Shown in pieces: positions 2,016 to 60,672 of a stretch of DNA of 64,000 bases. The first letter of the stretch is position 1. The number at the start of each line of letters is the position of its first letter. Origin of the DNA: Eledone cirrhosa (lineage: Eukaryota). The stretch is from assembly GCA_964016885.1 (NCBI GenBank), contig OZ024740.1:330832001-330896000 (forward strand), in the 5' to 3' direction. The notes under the pieces are model-generated. The model did not search any database, was not told where the DNA came from, and worked only from the letters and a program-made list of their open reading frames with translations. A program made the translations under genes and the position numbers.

Positions 2016-2056
2016 TGATTTCTTTATTAACCACAAGGGTTTACATAAAGTAGACA

Positions 2057-5000
2057 TTAAGGCGGGGCAATCCTCACGATGGACTCAGATGATAGCTGGA
2101 TCCGTCCTAAACGCGACAGCAGGTGTTCGACATAAACCCACAAGTCAGCAATTTTCGGACACTGGACGAGTGCGTACAGGACGGTTTCGTCGCCCTGCGC
2201 GCATCTCGGACATGCCAGGCTGACGGCACCTCCATGCCTGTAGAGTTTATCCCGAACTGCCAAGGCTCCTCGGTAGCACTGCCAGGCCAGAGATTTCTGG
2301 AAGTTGTCCATAGGCCCTGGCCCGAAAGTTCTTCCGAAGAGATTGGCTAGTTGATTTTCGTCGACGCCTAGAGTTTCCCCAAGTACGTCGTCGCGCTTCC
2401 CCTCCACTAATCCTCTATAGAACGCCGAGGTGGAGTTTCCACCGATCACATTGCCCGATTGGTCGAGGGCTGTGAGCGCCTGAAGACATTCCAGTCTCCA
2501 AGCGCTCCCTCTTGGTCTTCGCTTGACCCAGGACTGCAGCTCCGTCAATGAAACGAGCTGGGGAAATACGTGTCTAGCAAACGGCGACCACACCTGATCA
2601 CCGTCGAGGAAGAGGTGGAGATGTGGTAGCCTGAGCCCGTGCCTGCGCATCATCAGCCACGGCATGCCCAGCCCTCCACGTAGCGGGTGTTGACAACAGA
2701 TGGACCGCCTGACCATCGGAGCACGTCCCTTCCACAAAAAGCGAAAGAGCAAACGCTCCAGCGCAGTCAGGCGAGGCTTAGGACAAGGTACGACGGTCAG
2801 GCGGTAGCAGATGACAGACGCGATGTACGCGTTAGGCACCTCCGCTCGACCTTTCAGGGATAGCTTCCTCTCCGCCCATTTCTGGGTGAGAGAAGCCACC
2901 CTGCTCGTCACCTCGTCCCAGTTTTTGTCCGTCTGGAGGTCCGGACCGAACCAGACTCCTAGCAATTTAACCGGTCCGACGACGCTGTTGGACGGCATGG
3001 ACCTGCCTCTCCAGGTGCCGGGCTGCAGGCCCACTGACTTTTCCTGGTTGATCATTGCTCCTGTCACCGCTTCGTATTCTCTTAGTGTAGTGCCGATCGC
3101 CTCGATGTGTTTGGCGTTCGACACCACTACGGTGACATCGTCCGCATATGCTGACACGGATCTTCCGCATCCTAGTTCGCGCGGGACTCCCCTCAACGTC
3201 TCCAGTTTGTGCAGTAATGGCTCGAGAGTCAATACGTACAAGAGGGACGAGAGGGGACATCCTTGGCGGACCTAGCGCATGATGTTGAACGGTTCCGACA
3301 GGTGACCTTTCACTCTCACCACAGAGCAGATGTCGCTGTGCATGGCAGCGATCCAGCCTCTGAAGACGGGCCCAAAGCCAGCCGCCCTCAGGACTGCCGC
3401 TAGGTAACGATGGTCGACCCTATCGAAAGCTTTCGACTGATCTAAATTGATCAAGGACCCACCCGTGCCAGGTTCCTTAGCTACCTTCTCTATGATGTAT
3501 CGCATGAGGTGGAGGTTGTCGTGGATGGATCTGTCGGGAATGGCGCATGTCTGTGCCTCTCCCACCAGACCACCAACGACAAGCGCCAACCTCTTTGCTA
3601 GCACCTTGGCCAAAATCTTGAACTCTGTGTTTAGCAGAGTTATGGGCCGGAAATTATCTATGTTATCCCCCTTGTTCGGATCCTTTCTCAGCAGTGCCAC
3701 AGCTCCTCGGCTCACAGAACTGGGAATTCTCCCGTTCTGTTGCCAGTTGCAGCAGACGTCCGTCAAGAGGCCTCCGAACATGTCTGGCATCTGTACGTAA
3801 AGTTCATAAGGCAGACCATCCAAACCAGGCGATTTACCCCTTGTGCAGCCAGTCATTGCCTCTCTTACTTCAGCGGCTGTTATCGGCTTTTCGCAACACT
3901 TCGCCTCAGTGGCCGAGAGCCGCGGCAGTCCGTCGAGGTAGACACTAAAGTCCATCCCTCTACCCGGCCCACCGCTGCCCCCGAACAGCTGAGCGAAGTG
4001 TCGCTGAAAAGCTTCACACATTTGCCCGGGATCGAGTAGCATGCGCCCGTCGTGGTCCACCAAAGACCGGATCGTGGCTTTGTTGCCACGACGCGCCTCC
4101 GCCACTCGGGCCCATTGAACGGCTTTCGTCCCCTCGTGTCTGAGAGCACGCACCCTTGCTCTGACAACGCAGCCTTCGTGCTTTGCATTGAAGAATTGGT
4201 CAAGGGCCAATTTCGCCGCAAGCACGTCGGACGCAATGCCTTTGCTAAGCGCCTCGTCTAATTTTCTAACTAGTTCTCCCTCTGCTCTATTTTTCTCTAT
4301 TGCTAAAGCCTTACTAAACCTAATCGATTCTATTCTAATCGCTCTTTTCAGAGCAAACGACCACTTGTTGTTGACGATGGCCCCCGTCAACGCCCGCTTA
4401 ACTAGTTCGCTAATCCGGTCTCTGTAGGCCTTGCGCGCTGGTAAGGACGCGTTTAGCTTCCAGTAGCCGGGTCCTCGTCTATGAAGCCTATCTAAGTCAA
4501 GCACACAGATCACGAATTTGTGGTCCGTGTAGCTGACTATCTTGAATTGTGGACAGCCTATGCTAGACCTATCTATTTCCCTACAAAATACTCTATCTAG
4601 ATATGATCTGGATGACCCTATACAATTTGTCCAAGTCCACATTGGCACATTCGGGAAATCCATTCGGTACCTGTCAGACAGTTTAAAACGCCTGAGCAGG
4701 TTGGTGAGGCTCTTGCACCCTCCACCCCTATCCGCTAATCCCACAGTGTCCCAGCGTGCATCTAAGATCCCGTTCCAGTCGCCCACTAACACTAAAGAGC
4801 GGGACGTTCCAAGAAAGGTCTCCAGACGCCGGAAGAAATCAGGCCGCCCTGCTCCTGTCGGGGCATAGACGGCCACTAGCCTGAAAGCTTACCCGTCTCC
4901 GCTGGTCACGTCCAGCACCACCAGCTTACCCTCTGGGTCCAGGAAGATGGCCCGTATGGCGAGATCCAAACCTCTCCGAAAAAGCACAGCAACTCCTCCA

Positions 5001-5200
5001 CCCGATCCAGGACGGCTGGGAGATGCGTACACATCGTAGCCGCCGAAGATCGGTGCGAAGGCCCGTGCTTCGGAGATTCTGGTCTCGCTGATGGCCACTA
5101 CATCTATGTTTAGTGACCTGAGGTCGTTGAGCAGGTGACCCTGCTTCCATGACGACCCCAATCCACGCGCATTTATGCTGCCTATTCTGAGTGAGGTCAT
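2057..5200 (-). pseudogene. Tx1-like ORF2 (APE endonuclease, RT, C-terminal Zn knuckle), disrupted
   Basis: Fragments 4889-5200 (SINARG, ISET), 3272-4876 (GDWN, YLDR, TDH, DQSKAFD) and 2057-3241 (YADD, CPRC); frameshift near 4885, stop at 3272, C-terminus missing. Confidence 0.9.
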
Positions 5201-5235
5201 GTTTAAAATAGAGTGGAAAAGATGGGAAAGAGCAC

Positions 5236-7374
5236 TTACCGTACTTTTGGCAGAGGAGGGATGGTTTTTACATCCCTTTTCACTTGATCGCCTGGTGAAG
5301 GGACCGTTGAATCGTCCCTTCGGCTGGTCGTCGGCTCTTCTAAGAGAATGTCTGAATATACTCTTCGATTGATGGTTCCTCCTAGGTCCCTGAAATCACC
5401 AACTGCGTTGGGGAATTTCGTTTTAGTGTTTGTGTATTGTTTCTGTGCTATTTTTAGCAGTCTTATGTTAGTTGGCGTTTTGATTGGTGCTGGTATTATG
5501 TAGTCCTGTTGTGAAATGTCTGTGTGTTCAATTATGTAAGTCATTAGTTTCTTGTTGTGTGTATTTATTGACGTGCATTTGTTTTTCTGGGGGTGGGGTG
5601 TGGTTCTGCTATTTTCTTGTCGTTGTTGCTGGGTGTGTGTGTTTTGTTGTTGTGTTTGCGATGTTGGTGCTTGTGGTGGTGGTGTTGAAGGTGTTGTTGG
5701 CGGTGGGGTTGTCGCCGGTGGTGATGGTGGTGCTAGTGTGGGTGGTGATGGTGTTGGTGGTGTTGCTGCTGTGGGTCTCTTTGCAGTAGACTTTACCCTT
5801 TTCTCATTTCTTTCCTCCCTTTTCAAAGGCGACGATGCGCTGCTTCTGCGTTTGTGCCTTCTTACGACATTTTGCCATCCCTCTCCCACCTCACACTCCA
5901 TGTCTGATTCTGTGAGGTCGGGGAGGGGTACCAGCTCCACTCTTTCACTTGTTGTTGTTGGTGATGTTTGCACTGGAGTCTCTGTTGCAGCTGCATTTGG
6001 TATTGCTGTTGTTGTTGTTAATATTTCCACTGCTGCTGCTGTTTTTGATTTCCGTGGCGTGGGTATGGGTGCCACGGACCTATCGTTCCTGGTTGCCGCT
6101 TGTCCTGTTGCTGGTAGCCGTGGAGCCGGATTCGGAAGGAGGGGGGTTTTCTCCTTTCTCAGGGTCTTCTCGTTGCAGAAGGCCCTGAGGTGAGTCTTCG
6201 ATCCACAGCGAAAGCATTTCGGGCGTTTGCCCTCAACACTTATGGGAAGTTGAGTGCCGTTATCGAAGTCTATCACATCCGGGATAGCTTCGATGCACTC
6301 CTGGTTGGTTTGGATTAGCATCTCAATGGAGGTGCCGACCCAATCTTCTCTTACTTTTTTCTGTACTTGCAGTACAGTTGTTTTGTCCTCGATTCCGACG
6401 AGGACAGACGCGGCCAGCCAAGAAGGGGCCATTCCGGGGGGGACGTGGGTCAGTTTGACCCTCACAATTTTTTGCCCGCAGTAGGAGGGCACCAACACCA
6501 TTTCCTTGCTCCTTAGGGTCACTACGGATTGGGCCTTTGCCTCCTGGGGTGTGGCAAAAAGTACGTCTACGGTGGCATTTATTTTGCCTCGGGTGATGTG
6601 CGTTTTCCGCTGCCACACAGACCCCAAGGCTTTTTGTATTTGGGCCTCTGTGGCTCTTTCCACCCTACGGGATTTTGTGCTTACTGTACGGTACGTGACC
6701 GTACAGTGCTGTTGGGTTTCGAAAAAATTTTCCGCTGCCTTGCAGATTGCTCGGTGTCCATTCTTTGTCACCATCTTCTTCGCTTCCTCTATCTCCTCAT
6801 CTGTTATGAGGATTGTTTCCAAGTTTTTCGCAATACCTGCAAATGAGATTGGTTTTTCTTTGCTGCTGTTGTTGTTGTTGTCGTCAGAGCTACTGTTACT
6901 TTTGTTGTTGCTGCAGGTACTACGACTACTGCCTTCGCCGCTGTTGCTGTGGTTGTTGTTGGTGTTGCTGCTGCTAATGCTGTTGTTGTTTATGCTGCTG
7001 GTGATGCTGTTGCGGCTGCTACTGTTGTTTTCATTGTCACTGTTGCTGTTGTTATTACGGCTGCTACTGCAATTATTCCTGACGTCAGACGAATGAACTG
7101 GGTTTTCGTATTTCCCGCACACCTGTTTCGTCGCTGTCGTCGTCGTCGTGGAGAAACCTTGCATGCTTTGAACGAGACTTTTCTTTTCTTTCGTCACTTG
7201 CGAAAGAGAAAGGAGGGAGAGAGACACATATAAAGAAGGGAGGGAGAGAGACAATCTTCTCTCTGCTGTAGTGACGATTGAGGAAGAAGAAGACGGAATG
7301 AGTGGGAGTGACCTATGCAAATTCTTTTTCGTAGCCATGTTGTTTTTTTTGTTTAAAATAAATATTGGGTACAA
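5236..7374 (-). CDS. Tx1-like ORF1 (nucleic-acid-binding), open 712 aa
   Basis: CFRCGSKTHLRAFC knuckle, Asn/Ser-rich N-terminal tract, Pro/Thr-rich C-terminal region; directly upstream of ORF2; homologous fragments at 21346-22685. Confidence 0.85.
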   Translation of the reverse strand: MYPIFILNKKNNMATKKNLHRSLPLIPSSSSSIVTTAERRLSLSLPSLYVSLSLLSLSQVTKEKKSLVQSMQGFSTTTTTATKQVCGKYENPVHSSDVRNNCSSSRNNNSNSDNENNSSSRNSITSSINNNSISSSNTNNNHSNSGEGSSRSTCSNNKSNSSSDDNNNNSSKEKPISFAGIAKNLETILITDEEIEEAKKMVTKNGHRAICKAAENFFETQQHCTVTYRTVSTKSRRVERATEAQIQKALGSVWQRKTHITRGKINATVDVLFATPQEAKAQSVVTLRSKEMVLVPSYCGQKIVRVKLTHVPPGMAPSWLAASVLVGIEDKTTVLQVQKKVREDWVGTSIEMLIQTNQECIEAIPDVIDFDNGTQLPISVEGKRPKCFRCGSKTHLRAFCNEKTLRKEKTPLLPNPAPRLPATGQAATRNDRSVAPIPTPRKSKTAAAVEILTTTTAIPNAAATETPVQTSPTTTSERVELVPLPDLTESDMECEVGEGWQNVVRRHKRRSSASSPLKREERNEKRVKSTAKRPTAATPPTPSPPTLAPPSPPATTPPPTTPSTPPPQAPTSQTQQQNTHTQQQRQENSRTTPHPQKNKCTSINTHNKKLMTYIIEHTDISQQDYIIPAPIKTPTNIRLLKIAQKQYTNTKTKFPNAVGDFRDLGGTINRRVYSDILLEEPTTSRRDDSTVPSPGDQVKRDVKTIPPLPKVR

Positions 7375-7553
7375 ACCCCCAATAAGCAGTTATTTAACCC
7401 CGAAGGGCCAAATAACGGGCAGAAAGACCCCTCTCACGAGGAGGAGGGTGTTTTTGTCTACAAATTGGTCTAGTTTTAAACAATTTACAATTGTTAAAGC
7501 GTTCAACATTTACAGTACCTTACAGAGCCGAGCCTCCGTCAACCATAGCATTC

Positions 7554-7608
<55 letters not shown>
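7554..7608. repeat. (AAT)n microsatellite
   Basis: Direct reading. Confidence 0.95.
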
Positions 7609-7609
<1 letters not shown>

Positions 7610-8305
7610 GGGAAGAAGACGCACGGAATAAGGGAAGAAGACGCACGAGGTGGTAGAACGTCACGAAATTGCTCCCGTAAGTTTTTGATTTTTAACATAT
7701 TTAAATCAATTGTGAAAGAACAATTTTTAGCACAAATGTTGCATAAATGCACCGAATGAGGTCCCATAAACTTTCGGATCCATATTATATTGTTGTATCG
7801 CTCAAATATTCAATTTTGTATTATATATTTTGTATTCAAAAAAAGAAAATGGTTATAAATGGAAGAAAACGCCCTCTGTCTATACTATATAGAACAGCCA
7901 AATAGCAGCAATTTCACCAATACCAGAAACTTGAAACACTACCTATCCCATCACACTAAATATAACAGCCAGATAACGGCAATTTCACCAGCATCATAAT
8001 AATAATTACTATTATTATTGTCTCAAATTTTAAAAAATGTTTAATTCAAATTTTACGGGAATATGTCAACACAAAATATAATAAAAATATATATTAAACA
8101 TACGAACAGAAACTCATAGATACTATATCAGTAACCACAACACCACCGCTGCCACCACCCCACCGCATCCATCATCGCCGCCACCACTCATTCAATGCTA
8201 CCGACACTATTCCCCTGTTAACTTGAGAGAGAAAGGGGAAGGTGGCGGTATCACTAGACAAGAGCGAGGCTAGCAAAAGATATAAATAGATTGACTTGGT
8301 GACCT
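7604..8305. repeat. Non-coding module M, copy 1
   Basis: Homologous to 12561-13383: starts agggaagaagac and ends at TATAAATAGAttgacttggtgacc. Confidence 0.8.
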
Positions 8306-8450
8306 TGCCGCCGGCCAAACGTCTACATCAACAATTATGGGACTGCTGGCTCACCCCTTCCTCACCAACAATATAAAAAGCCCCGGCACCACCACCGACA
8401 TAGCCAACAATAATAACAGCCAACTACAACAAAAAGTATATTATATTATT

Positions 8451-8505
8451 GTAATGCACTGGGTGATTGCTGGCCTTGTGTCTGGAGTGGAGAAAGTTAT
8501 TAATA
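8451..8505 (+). mobile_element. SINE 3' fragment
   Basis: gtaatgcactgggtgattgctggccttgtg matches the SINE tail seen elsewhere in the window. Confidence 0.55.
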
Positions 8506-8579
8506 ATTTCATTCTTAAGCCACGCAATGCTCACATTAAGGAACCACTCATGATAATAATTTTAAAAAAAACAACAAAA

Positions 8580-11500
8580 AGAAAACCCCGTGACCAAGAA
8601 ATACCGGGATGGCGGCCGGCGGGGAATAGCCATGTCTCTAGGGGAGAACGACCCCTCTAGTCTTTGTTGACACTCGTTCTAGAAGTGGTAACACGAAATG
8701 ATTACTCCTTGGCGGATAAGGATAAAACGCGACAAAATAAAGTAAATGTCTAATGATAAAATCTCATACCGGATCGGCCGTCACCCGGGTAAAAAAGGGC
8801 CGCGTCCCTCAGAGAGGAACCAGACTGGGATCGAAAAATCAGCTAATGGTTCAAACCTTCCCATCACTTCGGAGCTGGAGACCTTCCATAACCGGAATAC
8901 TCCTATTGTTGGCCCTCCATGCTCACCACCAAGAAATCCAAAGAAAAAGAGAGAAAAATGGTCAAGGGAAGATAATAAAGAAGTCCTTGAGGCTTTCTAG
9001 ACTGCCATGTACTACCCATCAAATACATCGAATACAGAACAAACATATATCAACTGCAAAAAGAAACATCCCGAAAGCAGAGGCTATATTGACAGTAACA
9101 AACTAGCCAATATACGAAGAAATATTGTAAGAAAAAAGTTACTAACTGATATAGAAATTGATCAGATCAAGCGAGTAGCACAAAGTCAGCGTAGGGAAAA
9201 TGAAACATGTGTCAGTGAAAACGAGGTAAATTGTAACACTTCGAATCCCAGGGTTGGGGCGGAATCACTGGCAACAGAACAAATTAAAGAAAGGATCGAA
9301 AAAGTGGAGGGAGTGCATGCTCAAGATGAAACTCCAAATGAAAATAATGAGATCGTAAATGATAGAGAAATGAATGCGAATGAACTTGCTAACTTGAAGG
9401 ATGAAATTATGATCGAATGGATGAAAATGAAAGAATCTGACATGGGGCAACGAGACACCCTCCCTAAAGATAATACACAAGACTAACATAATTCTCAAAA
9501 ACATTATCATCACAAACAAACTAAACATTACTTACTTAAATCATCTCTATTATGCATCGGCTAAAGTCACCACTCACTTATGTGGAGTGAAGATGAAAAA
9601 ACAAAGGAATTCCCACAAGAAATCTACTTGGCAAGATAACATCAATCGCCAAATAAACCTTCTTCGATCTGACATAGAAATTTTAACAAACTATAAAGTA
9701 GGTGAACATGTTAAACAAACTAAACTTAGAAAATTGAAAAAAAAGTACAGTATAAAATCAACAAGTGGCATAGACATGCTGATAGAAATAATCAAGCAAA
9801 AAGTGTCGGCCAAAACTGCTCGTATAAGGCGCTTTGAAAAACGATCTAGATTCTATAAGGACAATAATATGTTCAAAAACCAACCAAAGAAACTTCTACA
9901 GAAAAATTGGTAAGTCAACAATAACTGCTAAATTAATACCACCCAAGGAGGAAGTGCAAAAATTCTGGGATAAGATCTGGGGCGAAGAAAAAGTTCATAA
10001 CATACATGCCCCATGGAAAGACAGACAAATGAAAGATACAGCTCACCTTGAGGAACAAATATGAGAAAATATAACAGTTGAACAGTTGCGCTTGGCTCTA
10101 AGAAAAACCAGCAAATGGAAATCCCCAGGAAAAGACAAAATACAAAACTTTTGGATAAATGCCTTCACAGAGTCTCATGAGCTGTTAGCCCAACTTTACA
10201 ATGAAATAGTTAAGGGGCCAGAAAAGATACCATCATGGCTAGTTAACGGCATTACATTCCTGCTACCGAAGAATGATGAGACAAACAATCCCAAAAATTA
10301 CAGACCGATAACTTGCTTGACCACAATGTATAACATTTTAACATCAGTCCTAACTGAATACACATATGACCACCTGATAACAAATGACCTATTTCCCATT
10401 GAGCAGAAAGGGTGTAAACGAGGCTCATATGGCTGTAAGGATCAGCTTCTGGTTAACAAAATGATACTGGAAGATTGTCATAATAGACACAAAACTCTAT
10501 CGATTGCTTGGATAGATTATAAAAAAGCATTCGATGGTTTGCCACACAGTTGGATTGAAAAATGTTTAGAGATTTTCAAAATATTCCCCGTTGTCAGGAG
10601 GTTTTTGTCATTCAGTATGTAGACATGTAAAACGACACTCCTTTTGAATAGTGAAACAAAATCACTGGAAGCTGGAGAAGTTAATATTAAATGTGGAATT
10701 TTTCAGGGTGACTCTTTATCACCGCTTTTATTCTGCATCGCACTTATACCATTAAGTAAAATGCTCAATGAAACAAAACATGGATATAAAGTCTATGACA
10801 AAACCATTAATCACCTGTTCTACATGGATGACCTGAAACTATTTGCAAAAGATGATGAACAATTGCAAGGGCTATTATCCACTGTGGAGCAGTTCAGTGA
10901 TGACATTAAAATGGATTTTCGACAAGATAAATGCGCCAAAGCAACGTTCACCAGAGGAAAGCTGCTGAAGAGTTCAGACATTAATCTTGATCAGGGGAAC
11001 GTGATAAGAGAACTTGATCAAGAAAAATTTACAAATATCTAGGTGTTTGTGAAGGAGACGGAATAAAGCACTCGACAATGAAAGAAAGGATAAGGAAGGA
11101 ATGTTACCGCAGAGTAAGAGCAATCTTAAGAACGGAATTGAACGCAAGGAATAGGATCGATGCCATAAACACGCTTGCCATACCAATAGTAACCTACAGT
11201 TACAATGTCATCAACTGGTCAAGCCCAGAGATCCGTAGGCTCGATACAAAAATTCGAAAATTCTTAACCATGCACAGAATGCATCACCCTAAGGCAGATA
11301 TAGATAGAATATATCTCCCTAGGAAAGAAGGAGGACGTGGGTTAATCCAGTTAGACATTGCGTAGAAAACTGCAACAATTGGATTATCTACATATCTAAG
11401 GGAATCACATGATTGGATGATCAAACTCGTTTTGAAACGCGGAAGCATCAACAGATCATATTCCATTAAACAATATGCACAAAGATACAGTAATGGACTA

Positions 11501-12511
11501 CAAATTTCAGAAGTCCCATTTACTGCTGAAATGGAAAACACAGAAAAAGCAAAGCAGGTAAAAGTAACTGCAAAGAAAGAACTGCTACAGAAACTGGCTA
11601 AGAAATGGCAAGAAAAGCCTCTGTATGGAAAATACCTAGAGCGAGCTAACAATCCTGATGTTGACAAAACTTTAACCCATCAGTGGTTGGCCTACTCTGG
11701 ACTGAAATCGGAGACTGAAGGACTGATTATATCAGCACAAGATCAGTGTCTGCCAACCAAAAATGACCAAGCCAACATAATAAAAAATGGGTGCAGCCCA
11801 TTATGCCGTGTATGCAAAAAACAACCAGAGACCATTGACCATATAATTTCAATGTGCAGTCCTATAGCTCCAACCGAATACCTAAACAGGCATGACAGAG
11901 CTGCACAATACATACATTGGATAATGTGTAAGCATTTTGACCTGCCCCATCAAAAGAATTGGTGGGAGCATCAACCACCTCCCATACTTGAAAAAGATCA
12001 GATCTCAATCTTGTGGAACTTCAGCACCCAAACAGACCGAAAAATAGATGCAAATAGACCTGATATAATATTGAAGGACTTTAAAAAGAGGGTATGCCTG
12101 CTAATTGATATGTCTGTTCCAATAGACAAGAATGTATCTATAAAAACATTTGAAAAATTGAGCAAGTATAAGGACCTGGAGATAGAAATTGGAAAAATGT
12201 GTAAATTGAGAACTAAAACAATACCAGTGGTTGTAGGCGCTCTGGGAATGATACCTAAGGGGTCTAATGATTATTATCGCAAATCCCAGGAAACCCGCGT
12301 ATAGGAGAAATACAAAAGATAGTACTAATGGGAACTGCCCATATACTAAGGAAGATTCTGTCAATATAAGTACATCACAAGTCTAAACACTAAAGATGCA
12401 TGTGTGAGTATGTATGTTTTTCTTGAACATGGCGTACCTTGTTGTCTCTTGAGGTCACTGGTTGTAACTTGGTGATAACTCGTATGAACATAAAGCAAGA
12501 TAAATGCAACT

Positions 12512-12560: not shown

Positions 12561-13866
12561 AGGGAAGAAGACATACATGGTGGATAGAAGGTCGAGAAAT
12601 CGCTCCCGTAAGTTTTGATTTTTTAACATATTTAAATCAATTGTGAAATAACAATTCTTAGTACAAATGTTGCATAAAACATCCAGCTTGAGTCCCAAAA
12701 AATTCGGATCCACAATATATTGTTATATCGCTAAAATATTCAATTTTGTATTATACATTTTATATAAAAAAAAATGGTTATAAATGGAAGGACACCCCCT
12801 CTGTCTACACTATATAGAACAGCCAAATAACAGCAATCTCACCAACATCAGAAACTAGATACACCACCTACCCCATCACCCCTCTGTGTACACTAAACAC
12901 AACAGCCCGATAACGGCAATTTCACCACCACCACCACCAATCTCAACATAATAATAATAATTACTATTACTATTGCCCCAAGTTTTAGTTTTAACAAAAT
13001 GTTTAATGCCAAAATTATGGGTAAATGTCAACGCATATACGCGACTAACGATAATTTCACTAAAGATAATTTCACCACCAATACCACCACCACTACCACG
13101 ATGAAAACTCTGGTCAAGTCGACTCAAATTTCTACTCCAACTTCAACACAATCACTACAGTAATACGACCACATCACCACCACCGCTGCCTCATTATCGC
13201 TACCGCCGCTATTCTCTCCCACTACCTCCTGCTAGTTGCTGCTACCACAGCACCGCCACCGCCGCCGCTGCCTCAATATCACTGCCGCCGCTATTCTCTC
13301 CCGCTACCCCCTGCTACATTGTAGAATTCTCACCAAAAGAGGAAAACATCGAAATATATAAATAGACTGAATTGATGACCCGATCAAAATAAAAATAAAA
13401 AAAACAATAATCAAAATCAAGTTTTAGTTTTAACAAAATGTTTAATTCCAATATTATGGGTAAATGTCAACACATATACGCGACTAATGATAATTTCACT
13501 AAAGATAATTTCACCACCAATACCACCACCACTACCACGATGAAAACTCTGGTCAAGTCGACTCAAATTTCTACTCCAGCTTCAACACCATCACTACAGT
13601 AATACGACCACATCACCACCACCGCTTCCTCACTATCGCTACCGCCGCTATTCCCTTCCACTACCTCCTACAAGTTGCTGCTAGCACAGCACAGCACCGC
13701 CACCACCCCCACCGCCGCTGCCTTAGTATCACTACCGCCGCTATTCTCTCCCGCTGTCCGCTGCTACATTGTAGAATTCCCACTAAAGAGGAAAACATCA
13801 AAATATATAAATAGACTGAATTGATGACCCGGTCAAAAAAAAAAAAACAACAAAAATCAAAATCAA
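12561..13866. repeat. Non-coding module M, copy 2, with an internal ~440-bp tandem duplication (12981-13419 / 13420-13866)
   Basis: Homology to 7604-8305; the two duplicated units are closely similar. Confidence 0.85.
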
Positions 13867-14039
13867 AGCAGCACAGCAACAACGAAAAACGTAAAGGAAA
13901 TAAAAATGAAGAGAAAAACAAACGGACGGATAGAGGAGGGAAGGGAAAACTAAGTCAGACATTCAAACTCTACATTACAATGAAACTTATGCTTATTCAT
14001 TTTTGTTTTTTTTTCTGCCTGTTTGTTTGTTTGTTTGTT

Positions 14040-17000
14040 TGGGTTCGTCTACAGCGTGATAATGCCACACAAAAGTCACGTGGAGTGACGAAACCACCGG
14101 AGACAAGTAATTCACCGGTGGTTATGTAACCATACATTCGCCAATCCTCGATAAGAGTGTTTAAGTGTCGAACCTAAACAGTTCGAATAACGGTGAAATG
14201 GAGACTAGAATGTCATGTGACAGACTCCCACCCAACAGGTGCTCTCTGGCTCAGCAGCAGGGACCTGGCTGTCAACCAAATACTGCTGGTGTCGGAGGAG
14301 GAAGAAGAAGAAGGAAAGGGACCAGAACCAACTGGACGAAAGAATTGAATAGAACTGTTATGCAATGTTACCTGAAGAGTAACCCAAGGAGAAAGGCTAT
14401 AGGAAAAGGATGCATAACATCTGGAACGAGATTGGTCCATTTAAATTAGATGAACAAAAACTGGCCGGGCAGGCTCGGGTAATAAGAAATAATGGGTGGA
14501 TAAGCGAGCTGGAACTGGAGGAACTGGGCAGAGAGATTAGCTTGGAGATGGAGGGTGGAGTATACCAGGCAAACGAGCCAGTGGAAAATGAAGGTGAAGA
14601 GGTCGAGAGAACGGAGGAACCACCCGAAACAGACAATGATCTGAATGCTGAGATAAATAATACCTGGAACAGAGATACGGCCACTGAGGAGATGAATGCT
14701 GACGGGCTAGGACAAGATTTGGTAGATATCCTAAACTTAGTGCTAGATGAATTGAACAATGATAGTGGGAGACCTATGAACGTAAGATTTGTAGACAGGA
14801 AAAAGTTAAAAGAAACAACAGCTAAGGTAAACAAAGTCATCCCATACCTTGAGGCGAGGAGCCTTCACCAGTGCAACAATATCCTCAAAGCAACAGCAAA
14901 TACGGTGAGGAAACTACTTGGTATAAAAGCGAGAGGAAACAACAGACAACAAAGAGCAGAGCCTTGGTGGAAGAAACGACTGAGTGGTCAAATCAGGGAA
15001 ATGGGAAATGACATTGGAAAGCTTGAGTCCCTACTGAATGGGGCACTAAAAATAGACTGGAAATAAAGTACAAAACTAGGAGGAAAAAGGTAAATATTAT
15101 CATAGAGGAACTGAAGCAACGCATTGTAGTAAAAAGTGCAAAAATCAGGCGATACGAGAACTGAGTCAGTCAGTATAAACAGAACCGCATGTTCGACAAC
15201 AACCAGAAGATGCTGTTTGGACAGCTTGAAGGGAAAGAAAGAGGCAACGACTTGATCCCTGAGGCGGAACAAACTAAAACATTCTGGAGAGGAATATGGG
15301 AGCTGGATGTTAAACACAATGACCAGGCAGTGTGGATTGAGACAATACAGAAGGAGATCAGTGAACAGGCACGCCAACAAACTGATTTGAGTATCACAGT
15401 TGAAACTCTTAAGGGGCAGGCCAAAAAACTAACCAACTGGAAATCACATGGCCCAGATGGTGTGCAGGGGTATTGGATTAAAAACATAACATCCCTCCAC
15501 CCGAAACTGACAACCATGTTCAATGACTGCTTGATGTCAGGTGAGGTACCAGAGTGGTTGACAAAAGGTACCACAGTTCTGATAATGAAAGACCGAATCA
15601 AGGGTAATGATGTTACCAACTATAGACCTATCACATGTCTGTCCGTAATGTGGAAACTGTTGACAAGCATTATGTCTGAGGAAATATACCATCACCACAA
15701 CACAAACAACTTGTTACCGGACAAACAGAAAGGATGCCGAAAGAAGTCACGTGGTACAAAGGACCAGTTACTTATTGATAAGATGGTAATGAGGAATTGC
15801 AAGAGGAGACACACTGGTCTTGCCATGGGATGGATAGACTACAAAAAGGCATTTGGCATGGTGCCTCATTCTTGGATCACCAAAAGCCTGGAAATCTTCA
15901 AGGTGGCAGATAACATCAGGCAGTTGTTGGGCAAAAGTATGAAGTCCTGGGAAACAGAGTTAACATCAACTGGAGAATACTTGGGAAGCGTGAAGATCAA
16001 GAGAGGTATCTTCCAGGGAGATAGTCTGTCCCCTCTGTTGTTTGTCCTTACCCTGATACCCCTGACAAGTGTACTGCGAAAAGTGAGAGCAGGATACAGG
16101 TTGGGAAAGGGAGGGCTTACCATCAATCACCTCCTCTTCGTGGACGATCTTAAGCTCTTCGGGAAGAGTGAGAAAGAGTTGGATGTGCTTGTTGACACGG
16201 TCCGTATTTTCAGCAATGATATATGTATGCAATTTGGTATTAGTAAGTGTGGAGTCATTGTGATGAGGAGGGGAAAGTTGAGCAGAAGTAACGGAATCCA
16301 GATACCAACAGGTGATGTGATAAAAGAAATTGACTCTGAAGAAGGATACAAGTATTTGGGGGTTCTGGAGGCTGATGACATCAAGAACAAAAAAATGAAC
16401 GAATTGATAAGAACTGAATACATTGGGAGAGTAAGGAGCGTATTAAAGTCACATCTGAACAGTAGGAATGCCATAAGTGCAGTAAATTCCCGAGCTGTGT
16501 CTATTATTAGGTACAGTGCGGGAATTCTGAGATGGAATGTTGCTCAAACAAAAAGAAATGGATAGGAAGACTATGAAGCTATTGACTATCTACAATATGT
16601 TCCACAAGAGGAGTGATGTCGATAGACTCTACTTAAGGAGATCTGAGGGTGGAAGAGGTCTTATCAGCATAGAGGACTGTGTTCAGATGGAGAAAAACAA
16701 CCTACACAAATACGTGACTGATAGTAAGGAGCCAATGCTCAGAGCTGTAATGAAGGAGGGGACAATAGGCCAGGTTTGTCCAAGGAGGAAATAACATCAA
16801 GGAGAAAGAGCAGCCTTCAGGAAAAATCCCTTCATAGTACCTTCTTTGAGAAAACTGAATTTAGAGATCCACAGACATGGAACTGGTTGAAAAGAGGAGA
16901 CATTAAAAAAACTACAGAAGGAATGCTAATGGCTGCGTAGTTGCAGGCCCTCAAAACGAAGTGGTTGAAACACCACATTTACAAGGAGGAGGCTAGCCCA

Positions 17001-17652
17001 CTGTGCAGGATCTGTGGAGAGAGAGAGGAGAGTGTGGCTCACATTGTATCCGAGTGTAAACACCTAGCCCAGACTCACTATTAGGGCTGGAGACATGATG
17101 TGATGGGCAGGGTGATCCACTGGCACCTGTGCAAAGTAAACAATTTACCACATTCTGAGAAATGGTATGAGCATAAGCCAGAGGCGGTGATGGAGAACGA
17201 TCAGGTGAAGGTGCTGTGGGATTTTAGGATACAGACGGACAAGAAACTGGAACACAATAGACCTGACCTGGTTGTTTTGGACAAAGAAAAAAGATCGTGC
17301 CTGATTGTGGATGTGGCCTGCCCATTCGACACGAGAGTGCAAGAGAAGGAGAGGGAGAAAATTAACCGATACCAGGACTTAAAGTGGGAGGTAAAAAGGA
17401 TTAGTAACTGCCATGAAGTCAAAGTGATCCCGATTGTCATAGCCGCACTAGGTACTATCTCAAAAAGCTTCCAGGGATGGTTAAAGAATATTGGCCCCTT
17501 CACGCTTTTTGGAACGCTTCAAAAGGCATGCTTGCTGGGAACAGCAAGAACCCTCCGATACGTCCTGAATATCTGAGGCTGCAGGTAGTGGCTTAATATT
17601 CATCTCAACAAACTTTCCAGTTAACTAACATCAATGACTTAGACTCAAAGAG
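14040..17652 (+). mobile_element. R4/Dong-type non-LTR retrotransposon, family A copy 2, near full-length and decayed
   Basis: Collinear ORF fragments; 3' UTR matches 1892-1977; followed by (AAT)n; 5' boundary uncertain. Confidence 0.9.
14198..17576 (+). pseudogene. RT-RLE polyprotein, family A, with several stops and frameshifts
   Basis: Fragments 14165-14449, 14410-15066, 15189-16565 (FVDD), 16537-16794, 17100-17576; high similarity to ORF 26-1891. Confidence 0.9.
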
Positions 17653-17680
17653 TAATAACAATAATAATAATAATAATAAT
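17653..17680. repeat. (AAT)n tract between Dong-A2 and Tx1 copy 2
   Basis: Direct reading. Confidence 0.9.
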
Positions 17681-20600
17681 GATGATTCCTTTATTGGCCA
17701 CAAGGGCTGACATCAAGAAAAACATCACAGACGGAACAGGACGGTACGATGTGGGTTTTGTGCGTGTAAATATTTTTATTATTTATATAAGAAAAGAAAA
17801 AAAGACATAAAAGATATATATATATAAACAATAAAATGAAAATTGAAACAATGAAAAATTCCCTAATAGGGGGAAACGTCCGAGGGTTACTCGTGGCGAA
17901 AACCACACAAAAGACCACGGCCACCCTGACTACAAGGGCAAGCCCCCTCTCCCAATTTTTCCATCTCTCAAACTACAGACGTATATTCAGACTCGGACCA
18001 TTCTCGCTACATTTAACTTGCTAGAAAGCAGCACTTGCCTCTCCACCCTGATTTTCCTCTTCAAGTGAAACTTGAAAAAGTTAATCAGGGATTCGCCGAA
18101 GAGGAAAGTGTTTGTCTTTAATCCTTTTAACCTTGTCCACCACACAATCTCTTTCGCCATGGCCACCAGTCAGATGAAAAGCGCCTGCCCTTCCTCCTCA
18201 AGGGAAGACGGCGAGACCATCTGCACAATGGACTCAGTCGACAACCGGATCAGTCCCACACGTGACAGCAACTGTTCGACATAACTCCACAAGTCTGCAA
18301 GGCCCGGGAACTGAATGAGTGCGTGCACAACGGTTTCGTCTCTATGCGCGCATCTCGGACAGGCTCGGCTGACGGCACTTCCGTGCCTGTAGAGCTTATC
18401 TCGAACCGGAGCGCTCCCCGGTATCACTGCCAGGCCAGGGATTTTTGGAAGTTATCCATAGACCCTGGGCTGAAAGTTCTCCGGAAGAGAGCAAGCAGCT
18501 GATCTTCTTCGACGCGCAGGATCTCTCCGAGAACGTCGTCGCTCTTCCCCTCCACTAGTCCTCTATAGAACGCCGAGGTGGATGTTCCACCGATACTGGT
18601 GCCCAACTGGGTGAGGGCAGTGAGCGCCTGGAGACATTCCAGTTTCCAAGCGCTATCCCTCGGTCTTTTTCTGACCCAGGACTGCAGCTCCGTCAAGGAG
18701 ACGAGCTGTGGGAAAATGTGCCTGGCGACCACACCCGTTCATCATCAAGGAAGCACCAGAGATGTAGCAGCCTCAGCGCATGTTTGCGCATCATCAGCCA
18801 TGGCATGCCCTGTCCTCCACGCAACGGGTGTTGACAGCAGATGGATCGTCTGACCATGGGAGCGCGTCCCTTCCACAAAAAGCGGAAGAGGAGGCGCTCC
18901 ATTTTGGTGAGAGTTGGGCTGGAGCAAGGGACGACGGTGAGGCGGTAGCAGATGACGGATGCGATGTACGCATTCGCCACTTCCGCCCGGCCTTTCAGGG
19001 ACAGCTCCCTCTCAGCCCATTTCTGGGTGAGGGAGGCCACCCTGCTCGCCACCTCCTTCCAGTTTTTCTCCATCTGGAGGTCCGATCCGAACCAGACCCC
19101 GAGCAATTCAACCGGTCCGTCCGTCCACCGCCCCACGACGCTGTCAGACGGCATAGACTTGCCTCTCCAGGTGCCTAGCTGCAAGCCCACCGACTTTTCC
19201 TGGTTTATCTTTGATCTTGTCACGGTTTCGTATTCCTTGAGAGTGGTGCCGAGCATCTGGACGTGTCTGATGCTCGACACCACCACGGTCACGTCGTCAG
19301 CGTAAGCCGACTCGGATTTCCCGCATCCTAGTTCGCGTGGGACGCCCCTCATCGCCCCCAGTTTGTGCAGTAACGGCTCGAGAGCCAATAGGTACAAGAG
19401 GGACGAGAGGGGACGGCCCTGACGGAGTGAGCGCTTGACAGGTGACCGTTCACCATCACAACTGAGTAGATGTCGCTGTACATTGCTGCGATCCAACGCC
19501 TGAAAACGGGCCCGAAACCGGCTTCCTCGAGGAAGCCCCCAGGTACCAATATCGAATGCTTTGGATTGATCCAAGTTGATCAGGGCCCCACTCTTGCCAT
19601 GTTCCTTAACCACCCTCTCTATGATGTATCGCATGAGGTGGAGGTTGTCGTTTATGGATCTGTCCGGGATGGCGCATATCTGCGCCTCTCCCACCAGACA
19701 CTTGACGACAAGCACCAACCTCGTTGCTAACACCTTGGCCAAAATCTTGAACTCTGCGTTTAGCAGGGTTATGGGCCTGAACTTATCAATAACATCCCGC
19801 TTGTTCGGGTCTTTTCTCAGCAGCGCCACTGCTCCCCGGCTCACAAAACTGGGAATGCTCCCGTTCTGCTGCCAGTTGCAGTAGACGTCTGCCAAGAGGT
19901 CACCGAATAAGTCTGGCATAAATGCATAAAGCTCGTAGGGCAGACCATCTAAACCTGGTGATTTAGCTCTTGTACAGTTAGCCATCGCTTCCCGTATTTC
20001 ACCGGCTGTTATTGGCTTTTCGCAACACCGTGCTGCGGTCGTCGAGAGCCGAGGCAGTCCGTCGATGTATGCACTGAAGTCCATGTCCCGATCCGGGCCG
20101 CCGCCGCTCCCGAACAGTTCAGCAAATGCTGCTGAAAAGCTTCACACATCCGCTCGGGTTCGAGCATCACGCACCCGTTTGAGTCAGACAAAGATCGAAT
20201 TGTGGCTTTGTTGCCGCGTCGCGCCTCTGCCACCCGGGCCCATTGGACGGCTTTTGTCCCCTCCTGTTTCAGAGCACGCGCTCTAGCTCTGACAAAGCAG
20301 CCTTGGTGTTTTACGTTGAAAAATTGGTCGAGTGCCAATCTCGCCGCAAGCACGTCGTTTGCGATGCCTGTCCTATACGCCTCTTCTAGCTTTCTGACTA
20401 GCTCTCCCTCTACTCTATTTTCCTCTATCACTACTTCTTTGCTAAACCTAATGCCCTTTTCTGAGCGAACCACCACCTGTTGTTGACGACCGATCCCGTC
20501 AACGCCCGCTTAACTAATACGCTAATCCGGTCTCTGTAGGCTTTGCGCGCCGCGAAAACGCGTTCAGCTTCCAGTAACCAGGCCCTTGTCTATGAAGTCT

Positions 20601-22685
20601 GTCTATGTAGATCTCACAGATCACAAATTTGTGGTCTGTGTAGTCGACTATTTTAAATTGTGGACAACTTATACTAGACCTATCTAGTTCTCTGCAGAAT
20701 ACCCTATCGAGATACGATCTGGATGACCCGAGCGGTTTGTCCATGTCCACATTGGCACATTCGGGTGATCCAGTCGATACCTGTCAGACAGTTCAAAACG
20801 TCTTAACAGGTTGGTGAGGCTCTTGCGCTTTCCTCCCCTATCCACTAGCCCCACACAATCCCAGCGTACATCCAAGATACCGTTCCAGTCGCCCACTAAC
20901 ACTAAAGAGCGGGACGTTACAAGAAAGGTCTCTAGACGTCTGAAGAAATCTGGCCGTCCTGCCCCTATTGGGGCGTAGACGGCTACTAGCCTGAAAGCAT
21001 TGCCTTCTCTGCCGGTCACGTCCAGCACCACCGACTTACCTTCTGGGTCTAGGAAGATGGCCCGTATCGCGAGATCCAAGTATCTCCGAAAAAGGACGGC
21101 AACCCCTCCCCCGATCCTGGACGGCTGGGAGATGCGTATACATCGTAGCCGTCGAAGATCGGTGCGAAGGCTTGTGCTTCGGAGATTCTGGTTTCACTGA
21201 TGGCCACCACATCTATGTTTAGTGACCTGAGGTCGTTGACCAGGTGACCCTGCTTCCAAGATGACCCCAGGCCACGTGCATTTATACTGCCTATTCTGTG
21301 TACGGCCATGTTGGATGAGAAACGGGGAAAGTGAGAAAGGGACACTTACCTTGATCGTGTGGTGAAGGGACAGTAGACCCGTCTCTTTCGCAGGTCATGG
21401 GTGTTTCCAAGAGGATGTCAGTGTATATCCTCTTGGTAACCGATTCTCTGAAGTATCAAACTGCGTTGGGGATTTTTTGTTTTAAAGGTTTGTACTGTTC
21501 TATTGAGATGTCGATGATGCTTATGTTTGACGGGAGAGTTCTTGGTGTTGGGCGGTGTAGTAGTTGTTTTCTGTGATGTCTATGTACTGCTTTATATATT
21601 GTATGAGTTCTTTTTTTGCCATGTTTATGGCTGTGTACTTTTGGGGGGGAGGGGTGATGTTGTTGCTGTTTTCTTCTTGTTGCTGTTTGATGTGTGTGTC
21701 TTGTTGTGTTTGCGTTGTTTGTGTTTTTGGTGATGCTGGTGGTGGTGTGGTTGTTGTTGTCAGTGGTGCTTGTGGTGGTGATGGTGGTGGTGTTGCTGCA
21801 AGTTTCCTTGCAGCCTTTACCCCTCTTTGTATGCCTTCGCTTTTGGAGGGTGAATCTAAGGGGTTTTATCTTTTTCGTTTTTTGTGGCAGAGAGTTTGCC
21901 ACTTCACTCCCGCCTCAAACTCCATGTCGGATTCTGTGGCGTCTGGGAGGGGTATGTGCTCCACAGCTGTTGGTGGTTGTAGTGGAGCCCTCTTCGGCAA
22001 TGTTGTTGCTGGTGTAACGACTTCAAATGTAGCTATTGGTGTTTCCGCCACTGATGATGCTGATTTAGTTGTCCGTAGCCTTGGTACGGGTGTTACGGAC
22101 GTTGCCCTCCTACTCACCGTGGAAGGAGCTTCTGCGTTTGTTGCCTGCCCTACTCTTGGTAGCAGCGGACCAGGTATTGGAAGGAGAGGGGCCTTCTTCT
22201 TTACTGTCTTCTGCGGGCAAAAGGCCCTGAGGTGACCCTTCGACCCACAGAGATAACATTTTGGCCGTCTTTCTTCTACATTTATAGGGAGTTGGAGTCC
22301 TTCTTCGATGTCTATGATATCGGGGATAGCCTCGATACATTCCATGTCAGTTTGTATAAGCATTTTCAAGCCTATACCTGACCAGTTCTCTCTCCCTATT
22401 TTTTCTACTTGCAGCATGGTCGTCTTGTTCTAGATTCTAGCAAGGACAGACGCGGCCAGCCAAGGTATGGGCACGTCGGGTGGGACCTGAGTCTCTTTGA
22501 CCCTCACAATTTTCTTCCCGCAGTAGGAGGGCACCAAGACTATCTCCTCACTCTGTAGGGTTACCAAAGTGTGAGACTTTGCTTCCTGGGGGGTGGCGAA
22601 TAGTACGTTTACTGTGGCGTACTTTCTGCCTCGGGTGATGTGGGTTTTGCGTGCCCAGACGCACCCCAAGGCCTTTTTGATTTGA
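17681..22685 (-). mobile_element. Tx1/L1-clade element copy 2 (diverged subfamily), 5'-truncated within ORF1, with complete 3' UTR
   Basis: ORF1 fragments (CYLCGSKGHLRAFC) at 21346-22685; ORF2 fragments from ATG at 21309 down to ~17950 with APE motifs, YADD and CPRC..H; 3' end cccttgtggccAATAAAggaatcatcatt. Confidence 0.9.
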
Positions 22686-22696
22686 AAATAACAATA

Positions 22697-22880
22697 ATAA
22701 TTGTTTCTACTTTTGGCACAAGGCCAGCAATTACCCAGTACATTACTGGTACTTTATTTTATCGACCCCGTAAGGATGAAAGGCAAAGTTAAACTCGGTG
22801 CGATTTGAACTAAGAATGGCAAGGGGCGTAATTCTATGCGTCAAAGCATATTGTCCGACCCTCTACCGATACTGCCAATC
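22697..22880 (-). mobile_element. tRNA-derived SINE
   Basis: A-box-like tggcagtatcgg, B box gttcaaatc, shared body and tail ggccttgtgccaaaagtagaaacaattatt. Confidence 0.85.
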
Positions 22881-57153: not shown

Positions 57154-57200
57154 AATGAATAATAACAGGTAGACATCATAAAAAGGTAGTTTATTCCGTG

Positions 57201-57312
57201 TGCTTACAAGTGTTTCCACGGTGGTACTGCAGCCTAGTTCCGCTACGTGCAAATTCACAAGTATATGCAGAACTCGAATATCCAATGCTGTGACCACTGT
57301 TTCCTCAGAGCA
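57201..57312 (-). ncRNA. Hammerhead (H7) in the downstream pLTR
   Basis: Copy of 60673-60784. Confidence 0.7.
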
Positions 57313-57810
57313 GAATGGTAAATATACAATGTAAAAACCCTTAAGTGGGGTTGTTGGGGAAGAGAGAGTGGAACAGGAAGAGAGAAAAGTGGGGAAGAAG
57401 GAGAGAGAAGGAAAGATATGCAGGGGTTGGAGAAGTAGGAGAGAGTGGCTTATAGATATCTTAATCAAAATGTTATGGTAGGGGTTTTAATAGTTACTTT
57501 TGGAGAGATGCGTAGATAGTTGAGGTCGGAATTATTTATTGCCCCAGAGATCAGGTTCATAGATGTTGAGAGGGAGGTAGGTCAAAGGTGAGAGAGAGAG
57601 AGTGTAATGGATGTAGAGAGAGATATATAGGTAGAGAGGGGACAGATAAAGTATATGTGGTGAGTGAACTTTTGGTTTTGTAGTAGTAATCTAGGAATTG
57701 TACTGAGTTACCATGTATAGTGATAAGCAGTGTATTGTCTTGTAGTGTGGGGGAGAAGAGAAGGTTGTTAGCTAGAAAGTGGTGTTGTAGTTACGGGTTC
57801 GAATGTTAAG

Positions 57811-59860: not shown

Positions 59861-59886
59861 CTCATAACAAGGTAGTTTATTCCGTG

Positions 59887-59998
59887 TGCTTACAAGTGTT
59901 TCCACGGTGGTACTGCAGCCTAGTTCCGCTACGTGCAAATTCACAAGTATTTGCAGAACTCGAATATCCAATGCAGTGACCACTGTTTCCTCAGAGCA
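59887..59998 (-). ncRNA. Hammerhead (H7) in the upstream pLTR
   Basis: Copy of 60673-60784. Confidence 0.7.
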
Positions 59999-60672
59999 GA
60001 ATGGTAAATATACAATGTAAAAACCCTTAAGTGGGGTTGTTGGGGAAGATAGAGTGGAACAGGAAGAGAGAAAAGTGGGGAAGAAGGAGAGAGAAGGAAA
60101 GATATGCAGGGGTTGGAGAAGTAGGAGAGAGTGGCTTATAGATATCTTAATCAAAATGTTATGGTAGGGGTTTTAATAGTTACTTTTGGAGAGATGCGTA
60201 GATAGTTGAGGTCGGAATTATTTATTGCCCCAGAGGTCAGGTTCATAGATGTTGAGAGGGAGGTAGGTCAAAGGTGAGAGAGAGAGTGTAATGGATGTAG
60301 AGAGAGATATATAGGTAGAGAGGGGACAGATAAAGTATATGTGGTGAGTGAACTTTTGGTTTTGTAGTAGTAATCTAGGAATTGTACTGAGTTACCATGT
60401 ATAGTGATAAGCAGTGTATTGTCTTGTAGTGTGGGGGAGAAGAGAAGGTTGTTAGCTAGAAAGTGGTGTTGTAGTTACGGGTTCGAATGTTAAGTTATTT
60501 TATAGTGAGAGAATTTAGCTTTTAGTTTGTGGTTGCAGTATAATGATCGTTCAATTCTATCGTTAAGTAGTTTCCTTCTCTCTCCTTCTTCCCCACTTTT
60601 CTCTCTTCCTGTTCCACTCTATCTTCCCTAACAACCCCACTTAAAGGTTTTTACATTGTATATTTACCATTC

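What the first reader, a model, noticed from the sequence alone, without database searches (positions are those of the whole stretch)
7604..8305. Unexplained non-coding module M sits upstream of two distantly related Dong-type elements
Seen: M starts immediately after (AAT)n at 7609 and again at 12561. It aligns clearly at nucleotide level for ~450 bp, then loosely through a CAC/CCG-rich tract to a conserved TATAAATAGA(T/C)TGA-N-(T/A)T-G(G/A)TGACC motif (8281, 13357, 13806). Families A and B are only moderately similar even as proteins. Neither Dong has a clear TAA tract at its 5' end unless M is included. Inference 1: a shared or swapped 5' promoter leader with a TATA-like box. Inference 2: a separate minus-strand non-autonomous retroelement with an (ATT)n tail that associates head-to-head with Dong.
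Basis: partly seen in the sequence, partly recalled or inferred. Interest (0 to 1): 0.7.

Follow-up and report, generated by a model that had tools for sequence, protein, structure and literature searches.

The report
Distant retrotransposons trade one front end
The stretch is the shared front end of two distantly related jumping-gene families in this animal genome, hybrid families carrying one family's front end on the other's body stand in tens to hundreds of copies in both directions, and the front end likely serves as their on-switch.

Summary
M is the 5' UTR of two R4/Dong-type LINE families, not a separate element. Of 80 position-ordered M copies, 52 run into family A and 22 into family B; 6 are interrupted. 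Truncated copies lose M from the left.

The A and B proteins are 43% identical with saturated silent sites, yet their M heads reach 95% identity, so M moved sideways. One B lineage carries about 700 nt of A's leader at a single junction (201 exact hits); older B copies keep their own diverged leader (143). A B-evolved leader sits on A bodies (60). The window's B type is a deletion derivative with a repeated 439-nt monomer.

A 169-nt GT-AG intron is precisely missing in 2 genomic copies, which implies sense transcription from M's left end. The TATA-like box is not that start site. No HDV-like ribozyme was found. Promoter activity is inferred, not shown.

This works like mammalian L1 5' UTR recruitment, but between far more distant lineages. 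The scan noted the same phenomenon earlier on other DNA of this genome.

The parts
7554..7609 (+). (AAT)n target microsatellite in front of element A; Tx1-like element on its other side, facing away
   Evidence: 61 of 80 M copies have a TAA run and 11 a GAA run directly upstream
7610..7630 (+). extra copy of the first ~20 nt of M (22-nt tandem duplication 7605-7647), particular to this insertion
   Evidence: most other copies match only from query position 17-18 onward
7631..7676 (+). 5' end of the Dong A element (AGGGAAGAAGAC...), first exon of the leader
   Evidence: 70 of 80 copies start within the first 5 nt (only truncations in the first ~60 nt are visible in that set)
7677..7845 (+). 169-nt intron, GTAAGT ... 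AAAAAAG, rarely spliced
   Evidence: precisely absent in L227 and L232; two more tandem copies (L225, L226) join 5 nt upstream of the AG
7846..8260 (+). rest of the A leader that family B captured: internal direct repeat, inner TAA tract, CAC/CCG tract, ending at TCACTAGACA, the A-to-B junction
   Evidence: 94.8% over 689 nt between B copy L123 and A copy L155; junction counts
8281..8305 (+). TATA-like motif TATAAATAGA(T/C)TGA..TGACC, kept in A and in B's own leader; not the start of the full-length RNA; function open
8306..8745 (+). A-specific remainder of the 5' UTR, with an antisense piece of a dispersed SINE-like repeat at about 8451-8508
8746..12370 (+). family A single ORF (RT, CCHC zinc finger, restriction-like endonuclease), broken in this copy; intact 1216 aa in L199 and L134
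12371..12559 (+). A 3' UTR and (TAA)n, which is also the target in front of element B
   Evidence: 36 of 36 recognisable A 3' ends are followed by TAA units
12561..12978 (+). M head of Dong B, derived from the A leader; donor GT at 12608, acceptor AG lost in this copy
12979..13860 (+). two 439-nt monomers: ~70 nt of A-derived leader joined by a deletion to B's own CAC/CCG tract and TATA-like motif; 1 to 4 monomers in other copies
   Evidence: the deletion joint is seen in independent DNA contigs X1 and X4
13861..14197 (+). B-specific remainder of the 5' UTR
14198..17577 (+). family B single ORF (RT, CCHC, restriction-like endonuclease), broken in this copy; start codon inferred
17578..17683 (+). 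B 3' UTR and (TAA)n tail
   Evidence: 14 of 14 recognisable B 3' ends are followed by TAA/CAA units

Best explanation
M is the 5' untranslated leader of two distantly related R4/Dong-type LINE families that insert into (TAA)n, hybrid families show that it has moved between them in both directions, and it likely works as their internal RNA polymerase II promoter. Shown: M begins full-length A and B copies. An older B subfamily has its own diverged version of the leader. A later B subfamily has ~700 nt of A's leader joined at one junction to the 3' two thirds of B's own leader. The youngest B subfamily, the window's type, lost ~300 nt and repeats a 439-nt unit 1-4 times. A B-evolved leader sits on A bodies in another family. 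Two copies lack a GT-AG intron exactly. Inferred: RNA starts at or just before M's first base and is usually left unspliced, so each new copy regains the promoter. The swaps arose once each, by a reverse-transcriptase template jump, by a truncated B landing in A's leader, or by deletion inside head-to-tail A-B stacks, and the hybrids then spread by retrotransposition. The monomers likely raise promoter output, as mouse L1 monomers do.
For: Linkage: 30 of 30 best M_A hits continue into A; 30 of 30 best M_B hits continue into B monomers. Of the first 80 of 814 exact hits of a shared 27-mer, all on contig C1, 52 lead to A, 22 to B and 6 are interrupted by insertions or inversions. Polarity: 10 of 30 B-anchored copies and 13 of 30 A-anchored copies are cut from the left, and none of the 60 shows a foreign leader. 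Swap rather than conservation: fourfold-degenerate sites of A against B match at 27 of 96 (28%; chance 27%), while M heads match up to 95.5% between families, median 91.6%, against medians of 94.6% within each. One clade for B heads is rejected, p-AU 0.008 (8 rearranged rows left out). Junction: left part of L123 is 94.8% to A copy L155 and 70% to old B; right part is 92.6% to old B. Exact hits: 201 hybrid, 730 native A, 143 old-B head, reversed-pattern controls 0. Reverse hybrid: L229 is 95% to B copy L237 over 561 nt and then follows A, 60 exact hits. Splicing.
Against: No transcript, start site or promoter assay was seen. The first leader exchange is not dated: old-B and A leaders are already 69% alike over 379 nt, which could be an older swap or slow evolution of a functional head. 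The order old, hybrid, deleted rests on a tree with few supported branches (2 starred); old and hybrid subfamilies have similar internal identity (94.0 and 93.4%), and only the deleted type is clearly younger (96.3%). Only 2 precisely spliced copies were found, and 2 others are 5 nt off. The route of the swap cannot be told from the junction. B. mori Dong gets its 5' end from a ribozyme (PMC3774820), and a diverged ribozyme or other cut could have been missed here.
Confidence: 0.85

Rival explanations
1. M is a leader that both families inherited from their common ancestor and kept by strong selection, without exchange.
For: Old B copies have an M-like leader with about 80% identity in the first 110 nt and the same TATA-like motif. 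Non-mammalian L1 families keep short motifs across divergent families (PMC5381506, passages).
Against: Silent sites are saturated between the ORFs while the leaders reach 95%. Within each family the head varies more than the ORF (medians 94.6% against 97.1% in A and 95.8% in B). Sharp junctions switch parentage. This may explain the older 69% layer, not the recent one.
Confidence: 0.05
2. M is a separate non-autonomous retroelement on the minus strand with an (ATT)n tail that lands head-to-head with Dong.
For: Its left end is sharp and abuts the microsatellite. A Tx1-like LINE does use the same tracts on the minus strand.
Against: 74 of 80 copies are joined to a Dong ORF in fixed register, and the other 6 are interrupted copies. 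Truncation runs from the left. The splice signals work on the plus strand.
Confidence: 0.02
3. M is a swapped leader but not a promoter: Dong RNA comes from read-through of upstream elements or host genes and M sets the 5' end by RNA cleavage, as the HDV-like ribozyme of B. mori Dong does.
For: B. mori Dong self-cleaves at its 5' junction after TAA repeats (PMC3774820, passages). Elements here sit in head-to-tail stacks, and 5' ends are sharp.
Against: No Rfam ribozyme at E up to 5. An HDV descriptor found 0 hits in 13 leaders while detecting 47 of 50 synthetic controls. The first 171 nt fold no better than shuffles (z 0.96), and the covariation term is near zero. A splice donor 46 nt from the end and variable monomer arrays fit a polymerase II promoter better.
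Confidence: 0.12
4. The TATA-like box is the real core promoter and transcription starts 25-30 nt downstream of it.
For: The motif is kept in A, old B and every monomer.
Against: 17 of 30 A copies are full length from M's left end. The 5 that start past the motif do so at +59, +212, +269, +347 and +418, none at +25 to +35. Three of 30 B copies start in an A-rich stretch roughly 45-90 nt after the motif. A shorter RNA used only for translation is not excluded.
Confidence: 0.08

Closest known systems
5' UTR (promoter) recruitment and recombination in mouse L1 (Sookdeo et al. 2013, PMC3600994; passages read)
   Same: One ORF lineage changes its 5' leader, leaders pass between co-active families, hybrids amplify as new families, and the same three routes are discussed (DNA recombination, RNA/DNA heteroduplex, template switch). 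Tandem monomers in the leader (mouse L1 monomers: seen in a reference title and an abstract, otherwise recalled).
   Different: There the partners are L1 families whose ORFs align as DNA. Here they are restriction-like-endonuclease LINEs with 43% protein identity and saturated silent sites, the exchange ran both ways, and both target the same microsatellite.
Dong / R4 clade non-LTR retrotransposons (B. mori Dong, PMC3774820; D. stevensoni Dong1/2, PMC7998251; Dong-R4 in octopuses, PMC13282606 and PMC8967140; passages read)
   Same: Single ORF with RT and restriction-like endonuclease, (TAA)n target, head-to-tail stacking.
   Different: B. mori Dong starts with an HDV-like ribozyme; none was found here. 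A 1.1-2 kb leader with an intron, monomers and exchange between families is not mentioned in the passages read.
Human L1 SpIREs (Larson et al. 2018, PMC5860796; abstract and section 10 read)
   Same: Rare genomic copies made from RNA spliced inside the 5' UTR; the donor lies near the 5' end and is conserved.
   Different: Other clade. Only 2 exact copies found here, and loss of promoter activity is untested.
Vertebrate L1 5' UTR evolution (Boissinot and Sookdeo 2016, PMC5381506; passages read)
   Same: Conserved motifs near the 5' end across divergent families.
   Different: That paper finds little or no leader replacement outside mammals; here an invertebrate-type RLE clade shows it repeatedly.

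Membership tests
R4/Dong non-LTR retrotransposon (elements A and B) | single ORF with reverse transcriptase | tested here: met
   intact 1216-aa ORF in L199 with RVT_1, E 2.6e-29; B 860-aa part with FMDD
R4/Dong non-LTR retrotransposon (elements A and B) | C-terminal CCHC finger, RHD and PD..D..K restriction-like endonuclease | tested here: met
   motifs in both proteins (motif patterns recalled); the B copy used has H in place of the PD aspartate
R4/Dong non-LTR retrotransposon (elements A and B) | (TAA)n target on both sides | tested here: met
   61 of 80 upstream TAA, 11 GAA, 8 other; 36 of 36 and 14 of 14 3' ends; target per PMC7998251
R4/Dong non-LTR retrotransposon (elements A and B) | N-terminal SANT/Myb-like domain (PMC7998251) | not tested
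   Pfam at E up to 1 showed none, but the paper needed HHpred on an alignment, which was not run
R4/Dong non-LTR retrotransposon (elements A and B) | RT tree placement with B. mori Dong and R4 | not tested
   no reference Dong protein was fetched; the name rests on architecture and target
HDV-like 5' ribozyme of B. mori Dong / R2 | nested double pseudoknot starting at the 5' junction | tested here: not met
   control 47 of 50; descriptor recalled and strict, so a diverged form is not excluded
L1-type 5' UTR recruitment | leader replaced on a continuing ORF lineage, hybrid amplified | tested here: met
   B ORF 5' parts 92-94% between subfamilies while heads differ by about 20-30%; 201 and 60 junction hits
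L1-type 5' UTR recruitment | tandem monomers of variable number | tested here: met
   1 to 4 units; motif counts 1, 2, 3 in 4 copies each and 0 in one, of 13 deleted-type copies
L1-type 5' UTR recruitment | leader has internal promoter activity | not testable with these tools
   indirect only: full-length starts and spliced copies
SpIRE-like spliced copies | exact GT-AG removal in integrated copies with element hallmarks | tested here: met
   L227 and L232 on different contigs, full 5' end after the microsatellite, continuing into A
independent minus-strand SINE-like element | stand-alone copies truncated from the right | tested here: not met
   0 of 80 stand-alone; 6 interrupted copies explained by neighbours
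Tx1-derived leader | homology of M's first ~225 nt to the Tx1 5' UTR | tested here: inconclusive
   collinear, gappy ~70% alignment; 8 of 20 pairings beat all 200 shuffles, old-B leader never significant; an nhmmer profile of 10 heads found nothing above shuffles

The most novel reading that the evidence does not exclude
M is a portable promoter-plus-intron cassette that circulates among all LINEs sharing the (TAA)n target. It was first taken from the unrelated Tx1 clade, replaced the ancestral ribozyme and read-through mode of Dong elements, and has since been passed back and forth between lineages that cannot otherwise recombine.
Probability: 0.3. Interest if true: 0.72.

Novelty: new variant of a known kind. 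Interest (0 to 1): 0.5.

Why it matters
Leader replacement in LINEs is mainly documented in mammalian L1, between close families, and is read as escape from host silencing. Here it runs both ways between lineages whose genes no longer align as DNA, with donors, junctions and descendants all present in hundreds of young copies. That makes the genome a natural series for asking which leader gives more transcription, whether monomer number matters, and whether a shared target site promotes exchange. It also suggests that some R4/Dong elements use an internal promoter, not a ribozyme. For annotation, M must not be called a separate repeat family, and subfamilies defined by leader and by ORF will disagree.

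Tried and rejected
RNA evidence: no RNA holder listed among 5 runs, which says nothing about expression. One attempt to lay contigs over the whole A-B stretch returned nothing, so read support across element A stays open. Laying on the hybrid leader L122 showed the deletion joint in runs X1 and X4. Run X5 (organism B) gave 2 records only, too little to date the swap.

Ribozyme or structured RNA: Rfam gave 6 hits at E 0.21-4.7, all far below their gathering scores. Descriptor search, consensus fold and single fold were negative.

Splicing as the cause of the A-to-B junction: rejected, since no GT follows TCACTAGACA in A.

TATA-proximal start: no pile-up of 5' ends.

Tx1 origin: suggestive only.

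A more distant A-like family with another leader, which would root the oldest exchange: only fragments were found in the held loci, not followed.

Literature searches for leader exchange or promoters in Dong/R4 elements listed no such paper. Subscription journals and Repbase entries are not covered, and no supplements were read.

Full report
Setting. The window lies in a 3.0-Gb genome of 1796 contigs. The first 23 kb are a stack: the 3' part of a B element, a minus-strand Tx1-like LINE (2040-7553; endonuclease and RT), (AAT)n, M plus element A, (TAA)n, M plus element B, (TAA)n, and a second Tx1-like copy.

The two M copies align at 77.5% over 546 columns. The TATA-like motif stands at 8281, 13357 and 13806, and the loose tract in front of it scores well above shuffles (68 against a mean of 28 and maximum of 48).

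M is the 5' end of the elements. The 30 best genomic matches to the A version all continue into A, and the 30 best to the B version all continue into B's monomers. These sets are ranked by likeness, so I also took a 27-mer shared by both versions. It has 814 exact hits and 0 for the reversed control. I fetched the first 80 by position, all on contig C1: 52 lead into the A ORF, 22 into the B ORF and 6 into neither. The six are cut by an inserted Tx1 piece or by an inverted neighbour. Seventy of the 80 start within 5 nt of AGGGAAGAAGAC. The reverse test agrees. Among 30 A copies anchored just before the ORF, 17 are full length, 8 start inside M and 5 start behind it. Among 30 B copies, 12 are full length, 5 start about 24 nt in, 3 run off the locus and 10 are cut from the left. 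None shows an unrelated leader. This is ordinary LINE 5' truncation on the plus strand and refutes the minus-strand element.

The sharing is not inheritance. An intact A ORF (L199, 1216 aa) and the longest B frame (L147, 860 aa) are 43% identical over 845 residues, and fourfold-degenerate sites match at 27 of 96, the chance level. M heads match between families at a median of 91.6% and up to 95.5%; within each family the median is 94.6%. On a tree of heads the family label changes three times, and one clade for B heads is rejected (p-AU 0.008, 66 rows, 8 rearranged rows left out).

A-to-B capture. Nine of the 22 B copies were classed as hybrids. The complete ones carry about 700 nt of A-type leader at 89-94% identity, ending at TCACTAGACA (window 8260), 20 nt before A's TATA-like motif. 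In L123 the left part is 94.8% identical to A copy L155 and 70% to older B copies. The right part, after about 11 unmatched AT-rich bases, is 92.6% identical to older B copies from their nt ~180 on. Exact patterns give 201 hybrid junctions, 730 native A joins and 143 old-B heads. Of 20 old-B loci, 19 run into the B ORF. The window's B type lacks about 300 nt across the junction and repeats the remaining unit 1-4 times. The same deletion joint shows in contigs of two DNA runs. ORF 5' parts give within-group identities of 94.0% (old), 93.4% (hybrid) and 96.3% (deleted). The tree fits old, hybrid, deleted but has only two supported branches.

B-to-A return. L229 is 95% identical over 561 nt to the leader of B copy L237, including B-specific tract sequence, and then follows A from the C-rich tract on. 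L236, L244 and L245 are of the same kind, and the junction has 60 exact hits. This junction lies in the C-rich tract that both families share, so homology probably helped (inference).

An older layer. The old-B leader and the A leader are 69% alike over 379 nt and about 80% in the first 110 nt. A still more distant B-like copy in L194 also has an M-like leader. Whether this is an older swap or conservation of a working head is open.

How it is expressed. A pattern for copies lacking the T of the donor gave 17 hits. Twelve are point changes, one continues into another repeat, two (L227, L232) lack exactly 7677-7845 from GT to AG without microhomology, and two tandem copies join 5 nt before that AG. 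A direct search for the joined form finds only these four. So M is read in sense into RNA that the spliceosome can process and that includes M's first bases (inference from the two exact copies). The donor is kept in 55 of 80 and 11 of 20 copies as GTAAGTT, with 13 and 6 not scored. The TATA-like motif lies about 650 nt inside this RNA, and no A copy starts 25-35 nt after it. B. mori Dong makes its 5' end with an HDV-like ribozyme (PMC3774820). I found none: Rfam, a descriptor with 0 hits in 13 leaders and 47 of 50 controls found, and folding. An internal polymerase II promoter is the most likely reading but is untested; no RNA run was available.

Tx1 link. Earlier notes propose that M came from Tx1. 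Older Tx1 5' ends align collinearly with M's first ~225 nt, with a GTAAG at a similar place. Eight of 20 pairings beat all 200 shuffles, but the alignment is gappy and AT-rich, the old-B leader never scores, and a profile search finds nothing. I leave it open.

Comparison and verdict. This works like 5' UTR recruitment in mouse L1 (PMC3600994), with SpIRE-like spliced copies (PMC5860796). It differs in clade, in the distance between partners and in running both ways; outside mammals L1 shows little such replacement (PMC5381506). Eight searches listed no paper on leader exchange in Dong/R4 elements. The scan has noted the same phenomenon on other DNA of this genome; a look-up by sequence returned nothing. 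Verdict: a new variant of a known kind, well supported at the DNA level, with promoter function inferred.

Noticed in passing
window 2040-7553 and 17690-22684 (minus strand): Tx1-like LINE that uses the same (AAT)n tracts in the opposite orientation, head-to-head with M; also seen inserted into M's inner TAA tract in L158.
   Followed up: partly
window 8451-8508: The A 5' UTR carries an antisense piece of a dispersed SINE-like repeat (about 80% to 22695-22746 and five other window copies), present in most A copies.
   Followed up: partly
L124, L127, L141, L176, L194 and others: (GAA)n runs stand directly before M in 11 of 80 copies, probably slippage on the GAAGAAG start of M during 5' joining: a microsatellite born at the junction.
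   Followed up: no
L139, L143, L191: Single copies whose ORF switches from B to A or from A to B in mid-element, showing that the stacks recombine or nest often.
   Followed up: no
L194:5185-6801: A more distant B-like copy (ORF start 83% to B) with its own M-like leader whose right part resembles A's, interrupted by SINE-like repeats.
   Followed up: partly
L069, L070, L080, L081, L082 (contig C18): Five near-identical B copies that all start about 24 nt into M, likely segmental duplicates.
   Followed up: no
window 7846-7853 and B leader after the junction: Repeated AAAATGG(C/T) words resemble a YY1 site (consensus CAAGATGGC quoted in PMC5381506), but lie about 215 nt inside the element, not at its start.
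   Followed up: no
window 57176-60840: Recent local duplications (98-99%) around two minus-strand ORFs of 444 and 359 aa without a Pfam hit.
   Followed up: no
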